From the NCBI RefSeq assembly GCF_013122565.1, contig NZ_CP053258.1: DNA of 64,000 bases, one strand, 5' to 3'. How positions within the stretch are numbered: the first letter of the stretch is position 1; each line of letters starts with the position of its first letter. Both the position numbers and the translations under genes were made by a program. The notes below the pieces were generated by a model. It saw nothing but the letters and a program-made list of their open reading frames with translations, had not been told where the DNA came from and ran no database searches. Below, piece by piece: positions 6,341 through 51,878 of this stretch. The DNA comes from Escherichia coli. GTDB lineage: Bacteria; Pseudomonadota; Gammaproteobacteria; Enterobacterales; Enterobacteriaceae.

Positions 6341-7000
6341 TTACTGCATCATCCCGGAGAATTTATTCTCCGGGTCCATCTCCAGCGCCAGTCCTGACAA
6401 CTGCTTTCTGTTTTTAATTAGATATCCTTTCTTGCTTTTAATTAATAAACCGTCGTGAATGAATTGTGCGAGAACATATAAAAGATGTCGATAAGAAACG
6501 CCTAAATACTCTGCCGCTTGCGTATGCTTTTCGTGATAAAGATCACCTTCTTGTGAGAGTAATATAAATGCTGCCAGGCGATTCACTAACGGAAATGATT
6601 GATTCTGAGTTAAAGAAACAATATTACGATAATTTTTATGACTTAAGGTGACGCAAAGTTTTCGTAAAAATAGGGTGTCGTTTAATAACAGCGGACGGTA
6701 ATGTTTCATAGGGAGCGCAAGGCACCAACACTCTTCAATAGCCTGTACCGCACGCGGTTCATGGTCTTTATCGATTAACTCAATCTCACCAATAAAACAG
6801 GGGGCGGCAAAGAAATCGATCAGCGACACGCGACCATTAGCTAGCGTGGCGTAAAGCCTGGCGCGGCCTCGCGTCAGGTAAAACAGCCAGGACGGCTGTT
6901 GCCCTTCCTGCACAATGTAGTCACGCGCTAAAAAATGAAACAGCCGCGTATCGGCTGAAACATCCGTTAAAAAGCAATCCTTAAACGCGGATTCACTCAT
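6341..7000 (-). CDS. yeiL: CRP/FNR-family transcriptional regulator YeiL
   Basis: ORF-track 6341..7039 begins at a GTG; internal ATG at 7000 gives the 219-aa protein [14 protein letters not shown]... matching YeiL. Confidence 0.88.
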
Positions 7001-24704: not shown

Positions 24705-24845
24705 CGATCTGGATCACATTCGTTAACAAAACGGCTGTAACCGTTTCCATTGCTGTGACTCGATTCACGAAGTCCTGTAGTCAGTGCTGACAAAATAGCC
24801 GCCAGCAAGCAGTCATTTACTGCAATCTCATAACAGGTAGTGAAT

Positions 24846-25886
24846 ATGATCACCATTCGTGATGTAGCGCGTCAGGCTGGCGTCTCTGTGGCAACGGTTT
24901 CCCGGGTGCTCAATAACAGCACGCTGGTCAGTGCCGACACGCGTGAAGCAGTAATGAAAGCCGTGAGTGAGCTGGATTATCGGCCAAACGCCAATGCCCA
25001 GGCGCTGGCAACTCAGGTTAGCGATACCATTGGCGTGGTGGTGATGGACGTTTCTGATGCGTTTTTCGGCGCGCTGGTAAAAGCGGTGGATCTGGTCGCC
25101 CAGCAGCATGAGAAATACGTGCTAATCGGCAATAGCTATCATGAAGCGGAAAAAGAGCGTCACGCTATTGAGGTGTTAATTCGCCAGCGTTGTAATGCGT
25201 TGATTGTTCACTCAAAAGCATTGAGTGACGATGAACTGGCACAATTTATGGATAACATTCCCGGTATGGTGTTAATCAACCGCGTTGTGCCGGGGTACGC
25301 CCATCGTTGCGTTTGCCTGGATAATCTCAGCGGTGCCCGAATGGCGACGCGCATGTTGCTGAATAACGGTCATCAACGTATTGGTTATCTTTCTTCCAGC
25401 CACGGCATTGAAGATGACGCCATGCGTAAAGCAGGCTGGATGAGTGCGTTGAAAGAGCAGGATATTATTCCGCCGGAAAGCTGGATTGGCACTGGTACGC
25501 CGGACATGCCGGGCGGTGAGGCGGCGATGGTTGAACTGCTGGGGCGCAATCTACAACTTACCGCTGTATTTGCTTATAACGACAATATGGCCGCTGGCGC
25601 ACTGACAGCATTAAAAGATAATGGCATTGCGATTCCGTTACATCTCTCAATCATCGGTTTCGATGATATTCCCATCGCCCGTTACACCGACCCGCAATTA
25701 ACGACCGTGCGTTATCCCATTGCTTCAATGGCTAAATTAGCCACCGAACTGGCCTTGCAGGGGGCAGCAGGCAATATTGATCCTCGTGCCAGCCACTGTT
25801 TTATGCCGACGTTAGTGCGTCGTCATTCTGTCGCAACTCGCCAGAATGCGGCGGCGATCACTAACTCAACAAATCAGGCGATGTAA
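24846..25886 (+). CDS. galS: LacI/GalR-family galactose isorepressor
   Basis: ORF-track 24840 is a GTG; ATG at 24846 gives 346-aa [25 protein letters not shown]... matching GalS. Confidence 0.92.
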
Positions 25887-25898
25887 CCGCTTTCAATC

Positions 25899-25914
25899 TG
25901 TGAGTGATTTCACA
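25899..25914 (+). promoter_or_regulatory. Consensus CRP site in the mgl control region
   Basis: TGTGA-gtgatt-TCACA, perfect CRP half-sites; lies just after the galS stop and upstream of mglB; an adjacent GalR/GalS-operator-like sequence tgtaaccgctttca overlaps the galS stop. Confidence 0.55.
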
Positions 25915-26165
25915 GTATCTTAACAATGTGATAGCTATGATTGCACCGTTTTAACGTTGTAACCCGTATGTAACAGTGAATAATCACTTTCACCGAGGTA
26001 ATAGCGTCATAACAACAATTAAAGCCGTTTTCTGGAGCGTTACCGGGCATGGAAGAACGAATTTTAAAAAGTAAGCTTCGGCGTTCAGTAACACTTCATT
26101 AACTCTACTGCCCCGCCGAGCATTTATCTCAAGCACTACCCTGCATAAGAAAAACCGGAGATACC

Positions 26166-27164
26166 ATGAATAAGAAGGTGTTAACCCTGTCTGCTGTGAT
26201 GGCCAGCATGTTATTCGGTGCCGCTGCACACGCTGCTGATACTCGCATTGGTGTAACAATCTATAAGTACGACGATAACTTTATGTCTGTAGTGCGCAAG
26301 GCTATTGAGCAGGATGCGAAAGCCGCGCCAGATGTTCAGCTGCTGATGAATGATTCTCAGAATGACCAGTCCAAGCAGAACGATCAGATCGACGTATTGC
26401 TGGCGAAAGGGGTGAAGGCACTGGCAATCAACCTGGTTGACCCAGCAGCTGCGGGTACGGTGATTGAGAAAGCGCGTGGGCAAAACGTGCCGGTGGTTTT
26501 CTTCAACAAAGAACCGTCTCGTAAGGCGCTGGATAGCTACGACAAAGCCTACTACGTTGGCACTGACTCCAAAGAGTCCGGCATTATTCAGGGCGATTTG
26601 ATTGCTAAACACTGGGCGGCGAATCAGGGATGGGATCTGAATAAAGACGGTCAGATTCAATTCGTACTACTGAAAGGTGAGCCGGGCCATCCGGATGCAG
26701 AAGCACGTACCACTTACGTGATTAAAGAGCTGAACGACAAAGGCATCAAAACTGAACAGTTACAGTTAGATACCGCTATGTGGGATACCGCTCAGGCGAA
26801 AGATAAGATGGACGCCTGGCTGTCTGGCCCGAACGCCAACAAAATCGAAGTGGTTATCGCCAACAACGATGCGATGGCAATGGGCGCGGTAGAAGCACTG
26901 AAAGCACACAACAAGTCCAGCATTCCGGTGTTTGGCGTCGATGCTCTGCCAGAAGCGCTGGCGCTGGTGAAATCCGGTGCACTGGCGGGCACCGTACTGA
27001 ACGATGCTAACAACCAGGCGAAAGCGACCTTTGATCTGGCGAAAAACCTGGCCGATGGCAAAGGTGCGGCTGATGGCACCAACTGGAAAATCGACAACAA
27101 AGTGGTCCGCGTACCTTATGTTGGCGTAGATAAAGACAACCTGGCTGAATTCAGCAAGAAATAA
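26166..27164 (+). CDS. mglB: Periplasmic galactose/glucose-binding protein
   Basis: 332-aa ORF with signal peptide [23 protein letters not shown]; matches MglB. Confidence 0.95.
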
Positions 27165-27224
27165 GACTGATTGGGCGCAGTCTATTACTGCGCCCTTATT
27201 GTATGACCAACAAGGTAAAATTAT

Positions 27225-28745
27225 ATGGTCAGCTCAACGACTCCGTCCTCCGGGGAATACTTGTTGGAAATGAGCGGTATCAACAAGTCCTTTCCTGGTG
27301 TTAAGGCACTTGATAACGTTAATTTAAATGTCCGGCCACATTCTATCCATGCATTAATGGGGGAAAACGGCGCAGGAAAATCAACATTATTAAAATGCCT
27401 GTTTGGTATTTATCAAAAAGACTCCGGCACCATTTTATTCCAGGGTAAAGAGATCGATTTCCATTCTGCAAAAGAAGCCCTGGAAAATGGTATTTCGATG
27501 GTACACCAGGAGTTAAACCTGGTATTACAACGTTCGGTGATGGATAACATGTGGCTGGGGCGATATCCCACCAAAGGCATGTTTGTCGATCAGGACAAAA
27601 TGTACCGCGAAACCAAAGCGATTTTTGACGAACTGGATATTGATATCGATCCGCGTGCGCGCGTCGGCACATTATCCGTTTCGCAAATGCAGATGATCGA
27701 AATCGCCAAAGCGTTTTCCTATAACGCGAAAATTGTGATTATGGATGAACCGACTTCTTCGTTAACCGAAAAAGAGGTCAATCATCTGTTCACTATTATT
27801 CGTAAATTAAAAGAGCGCGGCTGCGGTATTGTTTATATCTCGCATAAAATGGAAGAAATCTTCCAGTTATGTGATGAAGTTACCGTATTGCGCGACGGTC
27901 AGTGGATCGCTACCGAACCGTTGGCAGGGCTGACGATGGATAAGATCATCGCCATGATGGTTGGGCGTTCTCTTAACCAGCGTTTCCCTGACAAAGAAAA
28001 CAAGCCGGGCGAAGTCATCCTCGAGGTGCGTAACCTGACGTCACTGCGCCAGCCGTCGATCCGTGATGTCTCGTTTGATCTGCATAAAGGGGAGATCCTC
28101 GGTATTGCCGGTCTGGTGGGGGCGAAACGTACCGATATTGTTGAGACGTTATTTGGTATTCGCGAGAAATCGGCTGGCACCATTACGTTGCACGGCAAAA
28201 AGATCAATAACCATAATGCCAATGAAGCCATAAACCACGGATTTGCTCTGGTAACTGAGGAGCGCCGCTCAACGGGAATTTATGCCTATCTGGATATTGG
28301 TTTTAACTCGTTAATTTCCAATATTCGCAACTACAAAAACAAAGTTGGTTTACTGGATAACTCGCGGATGAAAAGCGATACCCAGTGGGTGATTGATTCG
28401 ATGCGGGTAAAAACGCCGGGGCATCGGACGCAAATTGGTTCGCTCTCAGGTGGTAATCAGCAAAAGGTGATTATTGGGCGCTGGCTACTAACGCAACCGG
28501 AAATATTAATGCTCGATGAACCGACGCGCGGTATTGATGTCGGGGCGAAGTTTGAGATCTATCAGTTAATTGCCGAACTGGCGAAGAAAGGCAAAGGGAT
28601 TATTATTATCTCCTCTGAAATGCCTGAGTTGTTAGGGATAACAGACCGTATTCTGGTCATGAGCAACGGTCTCGTTTCCGGAATTGTCGACACAAAAACA
28701 ACAACGCAAAACGAAATTCTGCGTCTTGCGTCTTTGCACCTTTAA
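27225..28745 (+). CDS. mglA: Galactose/methyl-galactoside ABC transporter ATP-binding protein (duplicated ABC domains)
   Basis: 506-aa ORF with two Walker A motifs (GENGAGKST; GLVGAKRT); matches MglA. Confidence 0.95.
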
Positions 28746-28760
28746 GATTAGGGGCTTCCC

Positions 28761-29771
28761 ATGAGTGCGTTAAATAAGAAAAGTTTTCTTACTTACCTGA
28801 AAGAGGGCGGTATTTACGTCGTTCTTTTAGTTTTGCTGGCGATTATTATTTTCCAGGACCCAACATTTTTAAGTCTGTTGAACTTAAGTAATATTCTCAC
28901 CCAGTCATCGGTGCGTATTATTATCGCGCTCGGTGTGGCAGGGTTAATTGTCACCCAGGGGACCGACCTTTCTGCAGGTCGCCAGGTGGGGCTGGCGGCA
29001 GTAGTAGCGGCGACGTTATTGCAGTCCATGGATAACGCCAACAAAGTGTTCCCGGAAATGGCGACGATGCCGATTGCGCTGGTTATTCTGATTGTCTGTG
29101 CCATTGGTGCGGTGATCGGTTTGATCAACGGTCTGATTATCGCTTATCTCAACGTGACGCCGTTCATTACCACGCTCGGCACGATGATCATCGTCTATGG
29201 CATCAACTCGCTCTATTACGACTTTGTCGGGGCGTCGCCGATTTCTGGTTTCGACAGTGGCTTCTCTACCTTTGCTCAGGGCTTTGTCGCGCTGGGGAGT
29301 TTCCGTCTCTCTTACATCACCTTCTACGCGTTGATTGCGGTGGCGTTCGTCTGGGTGTTGTGGAACAAAACCCGCTTCGGTAAGAACATTTTTGCCATTG
29401 GCGGTAACCCGGAAGCGGCAAAAGTATCTGGTGTCAACGTCGGCCTGAACCTGCTGATGATCTACGCGTTGTCTGGCGTGTTCTATGCCTTTGGCGGGAT
29501 GTTAGAAGCCGGACGTATCGGCTCTGCCACCAACAACCTCGGCTTTATGTATGAGCTGGATGCTATCGCGGCGTGCGTGGTAGGCGGTGTATCGTTCAGC
29601 GGCGGTGTGGGGACGGTGATTGGCGTGGTGACCGGGGTAATTATTTTTACCGTCATCAACTATGGCCTGACGTATATCGGCGTAAACCCATACTGGCAGT
29701 ACATCATCAAAGGGGCGATTATTATCTTCGCCGTAGCGCTGGATTCACTGAAATACGCGCGTAAGAAGTGA
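28761..29771 (+). CDS. mglC: Galactose/methyl-galactoside ABC transporter permease
   Basis: 336-aa membrane ORF matching MglC. Confidence 0.95.
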   Translation: MSALNKKSFLTYLKEGGIYVVLLVLLAIIIFQDPTFLSLLNLSNILTQSSVRIIIALGVAGLIVTQGTDLSAGRQVGLAAVVAATLLQSMDNANKVFPEMATMPIALVILIVCAIGAVIGLINGLIIAYLNVTPFITTLGTMIIVYGINSLYYDFVGASPISGFDSGFSTFAQGFVALGSFRLSYITFYALIAVAFVWVLWNKTRFGKNIFAIGGNPEAAKVSGVNVGLNLLMIYALSGVFYAFGGMLEAGRIGSATNNLGFMYELDAIAACVVGGVSFSGGVGTVIGVVTGVIIFTVINYGLTYIGVNPYWQYIIKGAIIIFAVALDSLKYARKK

Positions 29772-29785
29772 TGTAATTGTGGATA

Positions 29786-29832
29786 TTGCCGGATGCGCTG
29801 CATCCGGCAATCGGTGCCAAATGCCGGATGCG
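29786..29832. repeat. REP element(s) between convergent mglC and preA
   Basis: Perfect palindrome ttgccggatgc-gct-gcatccggcaa, then a second partial gccggatgcg copy. Confidence 0.6.
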
Positions 29833-29841
29833 TCTCTGGTT

Positions 29842-31077
29842 TTACAACGTTACCGGGTGTTCTTTCTCTCCCTTCTTAAACTTCACTTCTCCGAGATCAA
29901 TACAACCCACCGGGCAGACGTGACCACAAAGCAGACAACCCACACATTTCTCGGTATTACAATGCGGTGTGCGGGTTTTCTCGCTCCATTCCATCGCCTG
30001 GTGACCGCCGTCGTAACAGGAAATATAACAGCGTCCACAGCCAACACATTTATCAAGATTGATACGGGGATAGACAATATAACTGCGGTCTAAATCTTCC
30101 GCCGGGACAATATTGTTATTCGCCAGACCTACCATCTCCTGCAACGAATCAAATCCCTGATCGGCGAGATAATGCGATAACCCGCTCGCCATATCTTCTA
30201 CGATGCGATAGCCGTACTGCATAATGCCGGTGGTGACCTGTAACGTTGCTGCGCCGAGCAATAAAAACTCCGCCGCATCCTCCCAGGTTTCAATACCGCC
30301 GATACCGCTGATTGGGAAATCGCGCAGTTCTGGATGGGTGCGCATTTGCTGAATGAAGCGCAGGGCGATCGGTTTTACCGCTTTACCGGAATATCCGGAA
30401 ATACTCGATTTTCCGTTAACGATCGGCATACCGATTTTCTGATTAAGATCGATATTGGTGATGGATTTAACGGTGTTAATCGCCGCAATGCCATCTGCGC
30501 CGCCGCGCTTCGCCGCCAGCGCCACTTCGCACATATCACCGATATTCGGCGTCATCTTCGCCAGCATTGGCAGCGTGGAACCCCGTTTCACTGCCCGACA
30601 ATATTTTTCTACCAGCTCCGGGCTTTGCCCGACATCGCTACCCATCGCATGAGAAGTCATTTGCGGACAGGAGAAGTTGCACTCGATCATATCCGCGCCA
30701 GCTTCTTGCACCAGGCGCGCCAGCTCCTCCCATTGCTGCTCATTTTCCCCCATGATCGAAGCGATCAATACTTTGTCCGGGTAATCTTCCTTCAGCCGAC
30801 GCAGGGCGGCCAGATTCTCTTCCAACGGATGTTCAGCAATCTGCTCCATATTTTTGAAGCCGATAAAACCGGTATCTTCTTTCACCAGATGATCAAAACG
30901 CGGCGAGACTTCGTTGGCGATAAAAAAGCCGATCGTTTTAAACACCACACCGCCCCAACCTGTGTCGTAGGCTTTGGCACACATCTCATAGCAGTTGCCT
31001 ACCGGCGAAGAAGAGAGGCAGAATGGGTTGGGAAACTTCACGCCGCAAAAAGTAATCGAAAGATCTTTCGTTAACAT
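29842..31077 (-). CDS. preA: NAD-dependent dihydropyrimidine dehydrogenase subunit PreA
   Basis: ORF-track 29842..31083; start moved to the second Met (31077) to give 411-aa [19 protein letters not shown]...; C-terminal 4Fe-4S ferredoxin cysteine motifs; matches PreA/YeiA. Confidence 0.9.
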
Positions 31078-32309
31078 GAGCAAGCTCCCTCTAAATAGTG
31101 ATGAATCGCCTCGGCGGCTTCTTTCCCGGTTTTCACGGCATAGACCACGGTTTTGTCACCCTCAACAATATCGCCAGCAGCAAAGACTTGCGGATCGCGG
31201 GTCTGATAATTTTGTGTTTTGATGGTGTTACGCTGCGGCTCTAACTCCGCAAAGGCATCCAGTCTGGCATGCTGACCGACGGCGAGAATAATTTTATCTG
31301 CCACCATCGTCAGTTCGCCCGATAACCGTACATGCTTAAACGTGACTTTATTGCCTTCCACGGCTACTGGCGTGAATCCATCGATGATCGAAACGCCCAG
31401 CTCCCGGGCGCTGGCAAACTCTTTTTCGCTTGCCGGAAACTCATCTAACTCTTCACGCGCTACGCAAGTTACCGCCTGACAGCCGAGAACTTTCAGCGTG
31501 CTGGCTACGTCCATCGCGACATCACCGCCGCCGATAATTAATGCGCTTTGTGGAATGCTGATATCGCCTTGCGCCTGTCGTGCACGTTGCAGGAAGTCGA
31601 CGGCAATCTCAACGTCGCTATGCTCAAACAGCGGTAGCCCGGAACCGCTTGATAACCCCACGGTGACCAGTACCGCGCGGTTTTCCGCTTTCAGTTGCTC
31701 CAGGGTGAGTGTTTTACCGACTTCGTTGTTGCACTTAATGGTCACGCCCATTTTTTCAATACGGGCGATTTCTGCATCCAGCACTGATTGCGGTAACCGA
31801 AATTGCGGAATACCGTTACGCAACCAGCCACCGGGGTGCGCTTCTTTCTCATAAATCGTGACGTCATAACCCTGGTTTGTTAGCGTCACACTGGCCTGCA
31901 ATCCGGCAGGACCTGCGCCAATAATCGCGACTTTGCCGAGCGTTTTAGTACCGGGCTGATAAATTTCCATCCCGGTTTGTTGTTCAAAATCAGTAACAAA
32001 ACGCTGTAAGCGGCCGATATCAATGGGAGCATCAACACCGGCACGGGTACAACCGCTTTGGCATAATTTCTCCGTCGGGCACACTCTGGCACAAACGGCA
32101 CCGAGGGCATTATTTTCGCGAATTGTCTCGGCAGCGCCTTTAAAATTACGAAAGTAGATTGAGCGAATAAATTTCCCCGGATCGGTCTGTGCCGGGCAAG
32201 CCTGACTACAGGGAGCGTCGTGACATAATAAACAGCGAGAGGCTTCTTTAATCGCCAGTAAAGGCGTAAAAGCCGGAGTGAGTTCATCCAGATAATTTTG
32301 TTGCGGCAT
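31071..32309 (-). CDS. preT: NAD-dependent dihydropyrimidine dehydrogenase subunit PreT
   Basis: 412-aa ORF with GAGPAG dinucleotide-binding motif; matches PreT/YeiT; overlaps preA start. Confidence 0.9.
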
Positions 32310-32401
32310 GTGATCTTCCTTAATGCTATGAGTAATTAAGGCGAACGCTAAATAAATATTGCGTGCTGATATTAAGGCTATGCGCGTGGGGAAATTTAAA
32401 C

Positions 32402-32417
32402 TGTGAAAGGATTCACA
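32402..32417 (-). promoter_or_regulatory. Consensus CRP site upstream of preTA
   Basis: TGTGA-aaggat-TCACA, about 90 bp upstream of the preT start. Confidence 0.45.
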
Positions 32418-32502
32418 AATAGCTGCGGTTCAGAATGTTATATCCGCAGCTTATTGAGTGAAGTAATAATTATTCTCAATAATTAACAGAAAAGAGAAAA
32501 TA

Positions 32503-34498
<1,996 letters not shown>

Positions 34499-34554: not shown

Positions 34555-34627
34555 ATATGTGATCTGAATCTCATTAATTATGCAACGCGTGAAACTTACA
34601 TCAAAAATGCGCGACGCATCGCAAATT
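34555..34627 (-). promoter_or_regulatory. cdd promoter region with tandem CRP-like sites (CytR/CRP-regulated)
   Basis: TGTGAtctgaaTCTCA at 34558-34573 and a second CRP-like element tgcgcgacgcatcgcaaa near 34608-34625, in the 129-bp region upstream of cdd. Confidence 0.5.
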
Positions 34628-35754
<1,127 letters not shown>

Positions 35755-35956
35755 TTAATTCGTAAAACGTGCTACCGATCACATTAAGAAATCAGCGCTT
35801 ATTTTTTCGCTCCCCGGTATTACGCAATGAGCAGCGAACTCAGGCATACATCAAGCATAGAGAGGGATTGCAGTTTGCAGCAATCCCTCTTTGCAGACCT
35901 TTAATCCGCTGACCATCGGCGCTAACATAGCGCCTCATTTTTTTGCGGGTGATGAT

Positions 35957-51657: not shown

Positions 51658-51878
51658 CGTCTCACCCTTGCTCGCGAGGTCCCGGTTTAACTTTAGACGC
51701 AGTTTTGCGAACCAGGTAGTTTTGCCCGTTTTTTGTGCATCTATAGGGTGATTTTATTTTTGCCAGGCGATTTTGAGTGATCGTACTCACGAATTCTCAT
51801 TTTTCTGCAAGAGTTCAAAGAAAGTTAAACGCAGGCAATGTATGTTACGCGTTTTAAAGGGAAGTGTGGTTTGCGGGT

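What the first reader, a model, noticed from the sequence alone, without database searches (positions are those of the whole stretch)
25899..32417. Two textbook-perfect CRP sites (TGTGA-N6-TCACA) upstream of mglBAC and preTA
TGTGAgtgattTCACA at 25899-25914 and TGTGAaaggatTCACA at 32402-32417 both match the consensus half-sites exactly. The mgl site fits known cAMP-CRP control. The preTA site predicts catabolite control of pyrimidine reduction.
Basis: seen in the sequence. Interest (0 to 1): 0.3.

Follow-up and report, generated by a model that had tools for sequence, protein, structure and literature searches.

The report
Known CRP sites at mglB and preT
The two perfect cAMP-receptor-protein (CRP) binding sites are real and evolutionarily conserved, but both are already catalogued E. 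coli sites, so glucose-dependent control of the galactose transporter mglBAC and the uracil reductase preTA is established knowledge rather than a new prediction.

Summary
TGTGA-N6-TCACA occurs exactly twice in the 64-kb window, at 25899-25914 and 32402-32417, against 0.05 expected by chance.

The window is E. coli chromosome: galS-mglBAC on the + strand and preA-preT-yeiS-sanA-cdd on the - strand. Site 1 lies upstream of mglB and site 2 lies 100.5 nt upstream of the preT ATG.

Both sites are already curated. The RegulonDB list reprinted by Shimada et al. 2011 gives mglBAC (activator, -41.5) and yeiTA, the old name of preTA (activator, -57.5). Their Genomic SELEX recovered both loci as CRP-bound in vitro.

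New here:
- In 22 Escherichia, Citrobacter and Pseudocitrobacter sequences, all 10 half-site bases of the preT site are invariant.
- A weak -10-like hexamer, TAGCCT, sits at a fixed spacing that puts CRP at -41.5.
- A published K-12 5'-end cluster maps CRP to -39.5 to -44.5.
- preTp is therefore most likely a class II CRP promoter, not -57.5.

In a position-weight-matrix scan the two sites rank only 5th and 6th in the window. About 41% of E. coli genomes carry an ERIC-like insertion in the preT leader; the window does not.

Verdict: ordinary and already known.

The parts
25899..25914 (.). CRP site of the mglBAC promoter (TGTGAGTGATTTCACA), class II
   Evidence: Exact consensus. The regulatory region is identical to K-12 across the site and promoter. 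RegulonDB entry mglBAC, activator, -41.5, plus a SELEX-chip peak.
25882..25895 (.). GalR/GalS operator-like element (TGTAACCGCTTTCA), overlapping the galS stop codon and ending 3 bp before the CRP site
   Evidence: The pattern TGTAANCGNTTNCA matches exactly at only two places in the window, here and at 24736-24749 in the galS promoter. Assignment to GalR/GalS rests on established knowledge of the gal regulon.
25936..25941 (+). Probable -10 hexamer (TATGAT) of mglBp
   Evidence: Read from the sequence. The position fits CRP at -41.5 and the mapped 5' end.
25946..25948 (+). mglB transcription start region
   Evidence: 25948 follows from the RegulonDB -41.5 position. 25946-25947 follow from the Romero 2014 5' end RVS_(III)-2238590 transferred to the window.
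26166..29771 (+). mglB, mglA and mglC (galactose/methyl-galactoside ABC transporter)
   Evidence: ORFs. Annotation of matching E. coli records.
32402..32417 (.). CRP site of the preTA (yeiTA) promoter; TGTGAATCCTTTCACA on the preT strand
   Evidence: Exact consensus. RegulonDB entry yeiTA, activator, and a SELEX-chip peak at yeiS/yeiTA. All 10 half-site bases are invariant in 22 sequences from three genera.
32375..32380 (-). Proposed -10 hexamer TAGCCT of preTp (bases 30-35 after the CRP site centre)
   Evidence: Present at that spacing in 21 of 22 orthologous sequences and shifted by 1 nt in the other. It places CRP at -41.5. This is an inference, not tested by mutation.
32365..32370 (-). Probable preT transcription start region (about 59-nt leader)
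   Evidence: Romero 2014 5'-end cluster 2231993-2231998 (U00096.2), transferred via K-12 to the window. The bases here are identical between K-12 and the window.
32318..32341 (-). Conserved inverted repeat CCTTAAT-N10-ATTAAGG in the preT leader; the 3' arm overlaps the ribosome-binding site AAGGAAG
   Evidence: The arms are conserved in all 22 sequences; Pseudocitrobacter has CTTTAAT, which still allows a G-U pair. The fold is not more stable than shuffles, z = 0.25. Function is unknown.
32422..32450 (-). Inverted repeat GCTGCGG-N15-CCGCAGC after yeiS, followed by TATTTGTG; a possible yeiS/sanA terminator directly upstream of the CRP site
   Evidence: Read from the sequence and conserved within Escherichia. 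The terminator scan did not call it because its loop exceeds 8 nt.
29842..32309 (-). preT (31071-32309) and preA (29842-31083), the NAD-dependent dihydropyrimidine dehydrogenase subunits
   Evidence: ORFs. Annotation of matching records.

Best explanation
Both sequences are genuine binding sites for cAMP-CRP, and each activates the adjacent promoter when glucose is scarce.

At mglB the site is centred at about -41.5, a class II position: CRP replaces a -35 element and contacts RNA polymerase directly. It sits 3 bp downstream of a GalR/GalS operator, so transcription needs both cAMP-CRP and relief of GalS/GalR repression by galactose.

At preT the single site also most likely works as a class II activator. 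It lies a fixed 29 bases upstream of a conserved but weak -10 hexamer, TAGCCT. There is no -35 element, and the mapped mRNA 5' end falls 40-45 bases after the site centre. preTA, which reduces uracil and thymine, is thereby switched on together with the neighbouring CRP-dependent nucleoside-catabolism gene cdd.

Status of each step:
- Shown: the sequence, its conservation and its spacing.
- Taken from the literature: in vitro CRP binding, curation as an activator, and the 5'-end position.
- Inferred: the class II mechanism at preT and the physiological logic.
For: - Exact consensus occurs twice against 0.05 expected.
- The genes were identified by 95-99% identity to 5425 E. coli genomes and their annotation.
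- RegulonDB entries exist for mglBAC (-41.5) and yeiTA (activator), and Genomic SELEX peaks exist at both intergenic regions.
- The mgl regulatory region is identical to K-12 across the site and promoter.
- The preT site is retained with 10/10 half-site bases in 22 sequences of Escherichia, Citrobacter and Pseudocitrobacter. Only 36 of 163 other non-coding columns are invariant, and the spacer varies among ATCCTT, ATCTTT, AACCTT and ATAGAT.
- TAGCCT sits at bases 30-35 after the site centre in 21/22 sequences. By contrast, the distance from site to ATG ranges from 99.5 to 271.5 nt.
- Romero 2014 lists a forward-strand 5' end at 2231993-2231998 (U00096.2). This puts CRP at -39.5 to -44.5. The same table gives -39.5/-40.5 for mglB and -40.5 to -43.5 for cdd, both known class II promoters.
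- No sigma-70 -35/-10 pair is found on the preT strand, as expected for an activator-dependent promoter.
Against: - The RegulonDB snapshot places the preT site at -57.5, not -41.5.
- The Romero 5' end is 'Class III': a leading edge of transcription that was not enriched by TAP treatment, so it is less secure than a Class I start.
- Converting U00096.2 to U00096.3 coordinates (+1978) relies on my recollection of the sequence revisions. It is only loosely cross-checked against another table.
- TAGCCT matches TATAAT at only 3 of 6 positions.
- By matrix score both sites are no better than the best chance hit in a shuffled window.
- No in vivo crp/cya expression data for preTA could be retrieved.
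Confidence: 0.75

Rival explanations
1. The preT site is a functional CRP activator site but acts from -57.5, as curated in RegulonDB. It would use a -10 such as TACATT (K-12), in a class I-like or intermediate arrangement.
For: The RegulonDB entry reprinted in Shimada 2011 Table S4 gives yeiTA, activator, -57.5. K-12 has TACATT at the position this implies.
Against: The implied -10 is not conserved. The window has CACGCA there, and the Citrobacter sequences cannot be aligned in that stretch. -57.5 is off the helical phase of canonical class I sites (-61.5, -71.5). The ERIC-like insertions found in 41% of E. coli genomes land almost exactly at that proposed start. The only 5'-end data retrieved map 14-18 nt further upstream.
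Confidence: 0.15
2. The preT site binds CRP but does not control preTA. It could be a chromosome-organising or 'spare' site, or a roadblock to read-through from sanA-yeiS.
For: Many CRP-bound sites in genome-wide studies have no measured transcriptional effect (general knowledge). The site directly follows a terminator-like hairpin after yeiS.
Against: The spacing to a -10-like hexamer is fixed across three genera, while everything downstream varies in length. A transcript 5' end lies at the class II distance. The site is curated as an activator.
Confidence: 0.05
3. preTA belongs to the CytR regulon like its neighbour cdd. CytR would be sandwiched between two CRP dimers, so the site would mediate nucleoside-responsive repression as well as activation.
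For: preTA acts on pyrimidines and lies two genes from cdd, whose promoter has tandem CRP sites at -42.5 and -92.5 (window 34558-34573 and 34608-34623).
Against: No second CRP-like site lies upstream of preT in Escherichia; the next-best matrix scores are 8.2 bits or less and far away. The 9-10-bit hits in some Citrobacter sequences lie 74 bp from the main site, not about 50 bp.
Confidence: 0.03
4. The two perfect matches are chance occurrences without function.
For: Their matrix scores (15.0 and 14.3 bits) fall within the range of the best hit in shuffled windows (mean 13.8, sd 1.4).
Against: The exact pattern is expected 0.05 times and is seen twice. Both matches lie in promoter-bearing intergenic regions. 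Both are recorded as CRP-bound in vitro. The preT site is invariant across genera.
Confidence: 0.01

Closest known systems
E. coli K-12 mglBAC promoter (RegulonDB: CRP activator site at -41.5, with GalS/GalR repression)
   Same: The window sequence is identical to K-12 from the galS stop codon through the CRP site, the -10 and the start region. The 16-mer is the one in RegulonDB.
   Different: Nothing in the promoter. There are four substitutions further down the 218-nt leader.
E. coli K-12 yeiTA (= preTA) promoter (RegulonDB: CRP activator site, listed at -57.5; Genomic SELEX peak yeiS/yeiTA)
   Same: Same intergenic region and same half-sites. The site-to-ATG distance is 100.5 nt in the window and 101.5 nt in K-12.
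   Different: One spacer base differs (window ATCCTT, K-12 ATCTTT). The stretch that would hold the -10 of a -57.5 promoter differs (window CACG-CAAT, K-12 TACATTAT). My analysis favours -41.5 over the curated -57.5.
Class II CRP-dependent promoters with a neighbouring specific regulator (galP1, galS, cdd CRP-1)
   Same: A single CRP dimer is centred near -41.5 and overlaps the -35 position. The -10 is weak and there is no -35. The galS promoter in this window repeats the mglB arrangement, with an operator at 24736-24749 and a CRP site at 24754-24769.
   Different: No operator for a specific regulator has been identified at preTp. The only other conserved elements there are the TAGCCTT block and the leader inverted repeat.

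Membership tests
cAMP-CRP binding site (E. coli CRP regulon) | Palindromic 16-bp core TGTGA-N6-TCACA within a 22-bp site | tested here: met
   Both sites match 10/10 half-site bases. Matrix scores are 15.0 and 14.3 bits, ranks 5 and 6 in the window.
cAMP-CRP binding site (E. coli CRP regulon) | cAMP-dependent binding of CRP protein to the DNA | not testable with these tools
   Reported for K-12: Genomic SELEX-chip peaks at yeiS/yeiTA and mglBAC/galS (Shimada 2011). The window's preT site differs from the tested allele by one spacer base.
cAMP-CRP binding site (E. coli CRP regulon) | Conservation of the site in orthologous promoters | tested here: met
   preT: half-sites invariant in 22 sequences of three genera. 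mglB: compared with K-12 only, identical.
cAMP-CRP binding site (E. coli CRP regulon) | CRP/cAMP dependence of transcription in vivo | not testable with these tools
   mglBAC and yeiTA are both curated as 'activator'. The primary expression data for preTA could not be retrieved; Zheng 2004 is not held.
Class II CRP-dependent promoter | Site centred near -41.5 relative to the transcription start, overlapping the -35 region | tested here: met
   mglB: -41.5 in RegulonDB, and -39.5/-40.5 from the Romero 5' end. preT: -39.5 to -44.5 from the Romero 5'-end cluster. Caveats: this is a Class III 5' end, and the coordinate conversion is partly from memory.
Class II CRP-dependent promoter | A -10 element at the matching distance and no functional -35 | tested here: met
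   preT: TAGCCT at bases 30-35 after the site centre in 21/22 orthologues, and no -35/-10 pair found on that strand. mglB: TATGAT at 25936-25941.
Class II CRP-dependent promoter | Dependence on CRP activating regions AR1 and AR2 | not testable with these tools
   Requires CRP mutants.
Class I CRP-dependent promoter | Site centred at -61.5, -71.5, -82.5 or -92.5, upstream of a complete core promoter | tested here: not met
   The curated -57.5 is out of phase. The -10 it implies is not conserved, and the mapped 5' ends lie elsewhere.
CytR-regulated promoter (tandem CRP sites) | Two CRP sites about 50 bp apart flanking a CytR operator | tested here: not met
   There is only one credible CRP site upstream of preT. 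For contrast, cdd in the same window has sites at 34558-34573 and 34608-34623.

The most novel reading that the evidence does not exclude
The curated geometry of the preTA promoter (-57.5) is wrong, and it is really a class II CRP promoter with an unusual, strictly conserved -10, TAGCCT. In addition, the ERIC-like insertion present in the preT leader of about 41% of E. coli genomes changes preTA expression. If so, both diet (glucose, acting through cAMP-CRP) and strain background would set how fast gut E. coli inactivates the anticancer drug 5-fluorouracil, a regulatory layer not mentioned in the two preTA drug-metabolism papers I checked.
Probability: 0.3. Interest if true: 0.35.

Novelty: already known. 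Interest (0 to 1): 0.1.

Why it matters
As a discovery it matters little, because both sites are in RegulonDB and were re-found by Genomic SELEX in 2011. Two modest points remain.

First, the evidence gathered here suggests the database position for the preTA site (-57.5) should be -41.5. That would change the predicted activation mechanism from an out-of-phase arrangement to a standard class II one.

Second, PreTA is the enzyme by which gut E. coli inactivates 5-fluorouracil. Neither of the two preTA drug-metabolism papers I searched mentions CRP or the promoter, and one of them does not mention glucose either. Catabolite control, and the common ERIC insertion in the leader, are cheap and testable sources of variation in that activity.

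Tried and rejected
Literature searches that led nowhere:
- Zheng et al. 2004 (CRP regulon profiling) is not held. The primary source behind RegulonDB's yeiTA entry therefore could not be identified; my guess of Zheng 2004 or Hollands 2007 is from memory and unverified.
- The stored Cappable-seq supplements contain no start site near preT and may be truncated.
- The Latif 2018 ChIP-exo supplements list mglBAC but not preT.
- Kim 2018 and the Rend-seq paper have no held supplements.
- The CRPBSFinder paper, the EAEC ChIP-seq preprint, the ROSE paper and two preTA drug-metabolism papers say nothing about CRP at preT.
- No paper in the library combines preTA with CRP other than Shimada 2011.

Ideas tested and set aside:
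- TAATAT (bases 36-41 after the site centre) as the -10. It is not conserved in Citrobacter or Pseudocitrobacter, and it predicts a start outside the mapped cluster.
- The leader hairpin as a stable regulatory RNA. Its fold is no better than shuffles (z = 0.25), there are no compensatory changes, and there is no Rfam match.
- A CytR-type tandem arrangement at preT.
- The matrix scan as proof of significance. The scores are within the chance range for a 64-kb window.
Full report
**1. Observation**

They are the only exact matches to TGTGA-N6-TCACA in the window. Dinucleotide-preserving shuffles give a mean of 0.05 matches, and none of 100 shuffles gave two. With one mismatch allowed there are eight matches against 1.77 expected.

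**2. Context**

The stretch 25000-33500 matches 5425 of 5426 complete E. coli genomes at 95-99% identity. ORFs and annotation give this layout:

| Gene | Coordinates | Strand |
|---|---|---|
| galS | 24840-25886 | + |
| mglB | 26166-27164 | + |
| mglA | 27225-28745 | + |
| mglC | 28761-29771 | + |
| preA | 29842-31083 | - |
| preT | 31071-32309 | - |
| yeiS | 32503-32742 | - |
| sanA | 32745-33464 | - |
| cdd | 33614-34498 | - |

Site 1 starts 13 nt after the galS stop codon, and its centre is 259.5 nt upstream of the mglB ATG. Site 2 is in the 193-bp yeiS-preT spacer, 100.5 nt upstream of the preT ATG. It follows directly after an inverted repeat (32422-32450) that looks like the yeiS terminator.

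**3. Both sites are already known**

Shimada et al. [quoted passage not shown] Their Table S4 reprints RegulonDB's CRP sites:
- mglBAC, activator, -41.5, TGTGAGTGATTTCACA
- yeiTA, activator, -57.5, TGTGAATCTTTTCACA
- galS at -42.5
- cdd at -42.5 and -92.5

Their SELEX-chip peak list has entries for yeiS/yeiTA and mglBAC/galS carrying the same motifs. The window is identical to K-12 across the mgl site and promoter. At the preT site it differs from K-12 by one spacer base.

**4.

I built a symmetrised 22-bp matrix from 49 RegulonDB sites in that table, leaving out the sites that lie in this window. I scanned the window with it. The ranking is:

| Rank | Coordinates | Locus | Score (bits) |
|---|---|---|---|
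| 1 | 34558-34573 | cdd CRP-1 | 21.3 |
| 2 | 35768-35783 | dusC/yohJ | 18.0 |
| 3= | 6532-6547 | (rihB/yeiL SELEX peak) | 15.4 |
| 3= | 2890-2905 | (pscK/fruA SELEX peak) | 15.4 |
| 5 | 32402-32417 | preT | 15.0 |
| 6 | 25899-25914 | mglB | 14.3 |
| 7 | 51776-51791 | (yehU/mlrA SELEX peak) | 13.8 |

The two perfect-half-site sequences are therefore not the top hits. The best score in shuffled windows averages 13.8 (sd 1.4). All seven top hits do coincide with SELEX-chip peaks in Shimada's list. Perfect half-sites are not the same as an optimal site, because spacer and flanks count.

**5. Conservation of the preT site**

A scan of one genome per species with the PreT protein returned 19 orthologous loci: Escherichia coli, E. 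albertii, E. whittamii, unnamed Escherichia, many Citrobacter, and Pseudocitrobacter. Together with K-12, strain PE164 and the window this makes 22 sequences.
- Every one has TGTGA-N6-TCACA upstream of preT, and all ten half-site bases are invariant.
- The spacer varies among ATCCTT, ATCTTT, AACCTT and ATAGAT.
- In the 18 sequences without large insertions, 12 of 16 site columns are invariant, against 36 of 163 other non-coding columns.

**6. Promoter geometry at preT**

The alignment shows a second invariant block, TAGCCTT. The hexamer TAGCCT occupies bases 30-35 after the centre of the CRP site in 21 of 22 sequences, and 29-34 in the other. The distance from the site to the ATG, by contrast, ranges from 99.5 to 271.5 nt. 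A -10 hexamer at that position puts the start at about base 42 and CRP at -41.5, the class II position.

TAGCCT keeps T1, A2 and T6 of TATAAT. No -35/-10 pair is detectable on that strand, which fits an activator-dependent promoter.

The -10 implied by RegulonDB's -57.5 is TACATT in K-12. It reads CACGCA in the window and is not conserved in Citrobacter.

Independent support comes from Romero et al. 2014 (PMC4681348). Their supplementary list of E. coli 5' ends (reference U00096.2) has three relevant entries:
- FWD_(III)-2231993, spanning 2231993-2231998
- RVS_(III)-2238590, which corresponds to mglB
- FWD_(III)-2229839, which corresponds to cdd

I added 1978 to convert to U00096.3. That offset is the sum of the sequence revisions upstream of this locus, recalled from my own knowledge, and it is only loosely consistent with the mglBAC unit end given in another table. 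The conversion places CRP at:
- -39.5 to -44.5 for preT
- -39.5/-40.5 for mglB
- -40.5 to -43.5 for cdd

The last two are accepted class II promoters, which calibrates the method. One caveat: 'Class III' means a leading edge of transcription without TAP enrichment, so it is less secure than a Class I start.

In window coordinates the proposed -10 is 32375-32380, the start region is 32365-32370, and the leader is about 59 nt.

**7. The mglB promoter**

The GalR/GalS operator-like pattern TGTAANCGNTTNCA has only two exact matches in the window. One is at 25882-25895, ending 3 bp before the mglB CRP site and overlapping the galS stop codon. The other is at 24736-24749, just before the galS CRP site at 24754-24769. 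TATGAT at 25936-25941 fits as the -10.

The working model comes from established knowledge of the gal regulon. CRP at -41.5 recruits RNA polymerase, and GalS/GalR bound immediately upstream interfere unless galactose is present.

**8. How it most likely works**

- cAMP-CRP binds both sites when glucose is absent.
- At mglB this is textbook class II activation, gated by GalS/GalR.
- At preT a single CRP dimer at about -41.5 substitutes for a -35 element and activates a promoter with a weak -10.
- preTA would then be co-expressed with cdd and the other CRP-dependent nucleoside-scavenging genes. This last point is an inference.
- No second CRP site is present upstream of preT, so CytR-type control is unlikely.

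**9. Side observations**

- The genomes closest to the window carry a 125-bp insertion between the promoter and the preT ribosome-binding site. Its core (CCCCAGGAGCTTACATAAGTAAGTGACTGGGG) looks like an ERIC element, judged from memory of the consensus.
- A query spanning the insertion is covered at 80% or more in 2202 of 5425 E. coli genomes. The remaining genomes, including K-12, BL21 and the window strain, lack the insertion.
- Related insertions of about 68-170 bp occur in E. albertii and two other Escherichia loci.
- The leader contains a conserved inverted repeat, CCTTAAT-N10-ATTAAGG, whose 3' arm overlaps the ribosome-binding site. Its predicted stability is unremarkable (z = 0.25) and Rfam has no match.

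**10. Verdict**

The only additions are a probable correction of the curated position, from -57.5 to -41.5, and the leader polymorphism. Interest is low.

Noticed in passing
window ~32354-32355 (insertion point); L001 10397-10521 region; also L004, L005, L007: Many E. coli strains carry a 125-bp ERIC-like repeat inserted in the preT leader, between the proposed start site and the ribosome-binding site. It is present in 2202 of 5425 complete genomes and absent from the window, K-12 and BL21. Variants of about 68-170 bp occur in E. albertii and other Escherichia. The effect on preTA expression is unknown.
   Followed up: partly
window 32318-32341 (- strand): A conserved inverted repeat, CCTTAAT-N10-ATTAAGG, lies in the preT leader, and its 3' arm overlaps the ribosome-binding site AAGGAAG. 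The arms are conserved in 22 sequences, with one G-U-compatible change in Pseudocitrobacter. A further CCTTAA copy lies inside the TAGCCTTAA block. The fold is not unusually stable (z = 0.25).
   Followed up: partly
window 32352 versus 32365-32370: RegulonDB (2011 snapshot) places the yeiTA CRP site at -57.5. The conserved -10-like hexamer and a published 5'-end cluster both point to about -41.5 instead. This may be a database position worth correcting.
   Followed up: yes
window 34558-34573, 34608-34623, 35768-35783, 6532-6547, 2835-2850, 2890-2905, 51776-51791: Other CRP sites in the window score as high as or higher than the two flagged ones: cdd CRP-1 and CRP-2, dusC/yohJ, rihB/yeiL, two in the pscK/fruA region, and yehU/mlrA. 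All coincide with published Genomic SELEX peaks.
   Followed up: partly
window 24736-24769 and 25882-25914: The galS and mglB promoters share one module: a GalR/GalS operator-like 14-mer followed 3-4 bp later by a CRP site. These are the only two exact operator-pattern matches in the window. The mglB operator overlaps the galS stop codon.
   Followed up: partly
window 29772-29841: The mglC-preA spacer between these convergent genes is 70 bp in the window and in strain PE164 but 242 bp in K-12. K-12 therefore carries about 170 bp extra here, content not examined.
   Followed up: no
window 33576-33613: A sub-threshold Rfam match to naRNA4 (31.4 bits against a gathering score of 59.5) lies in the sanA-cdd spacer. 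It is most likely a REP-type repeat.
   Followed up: no
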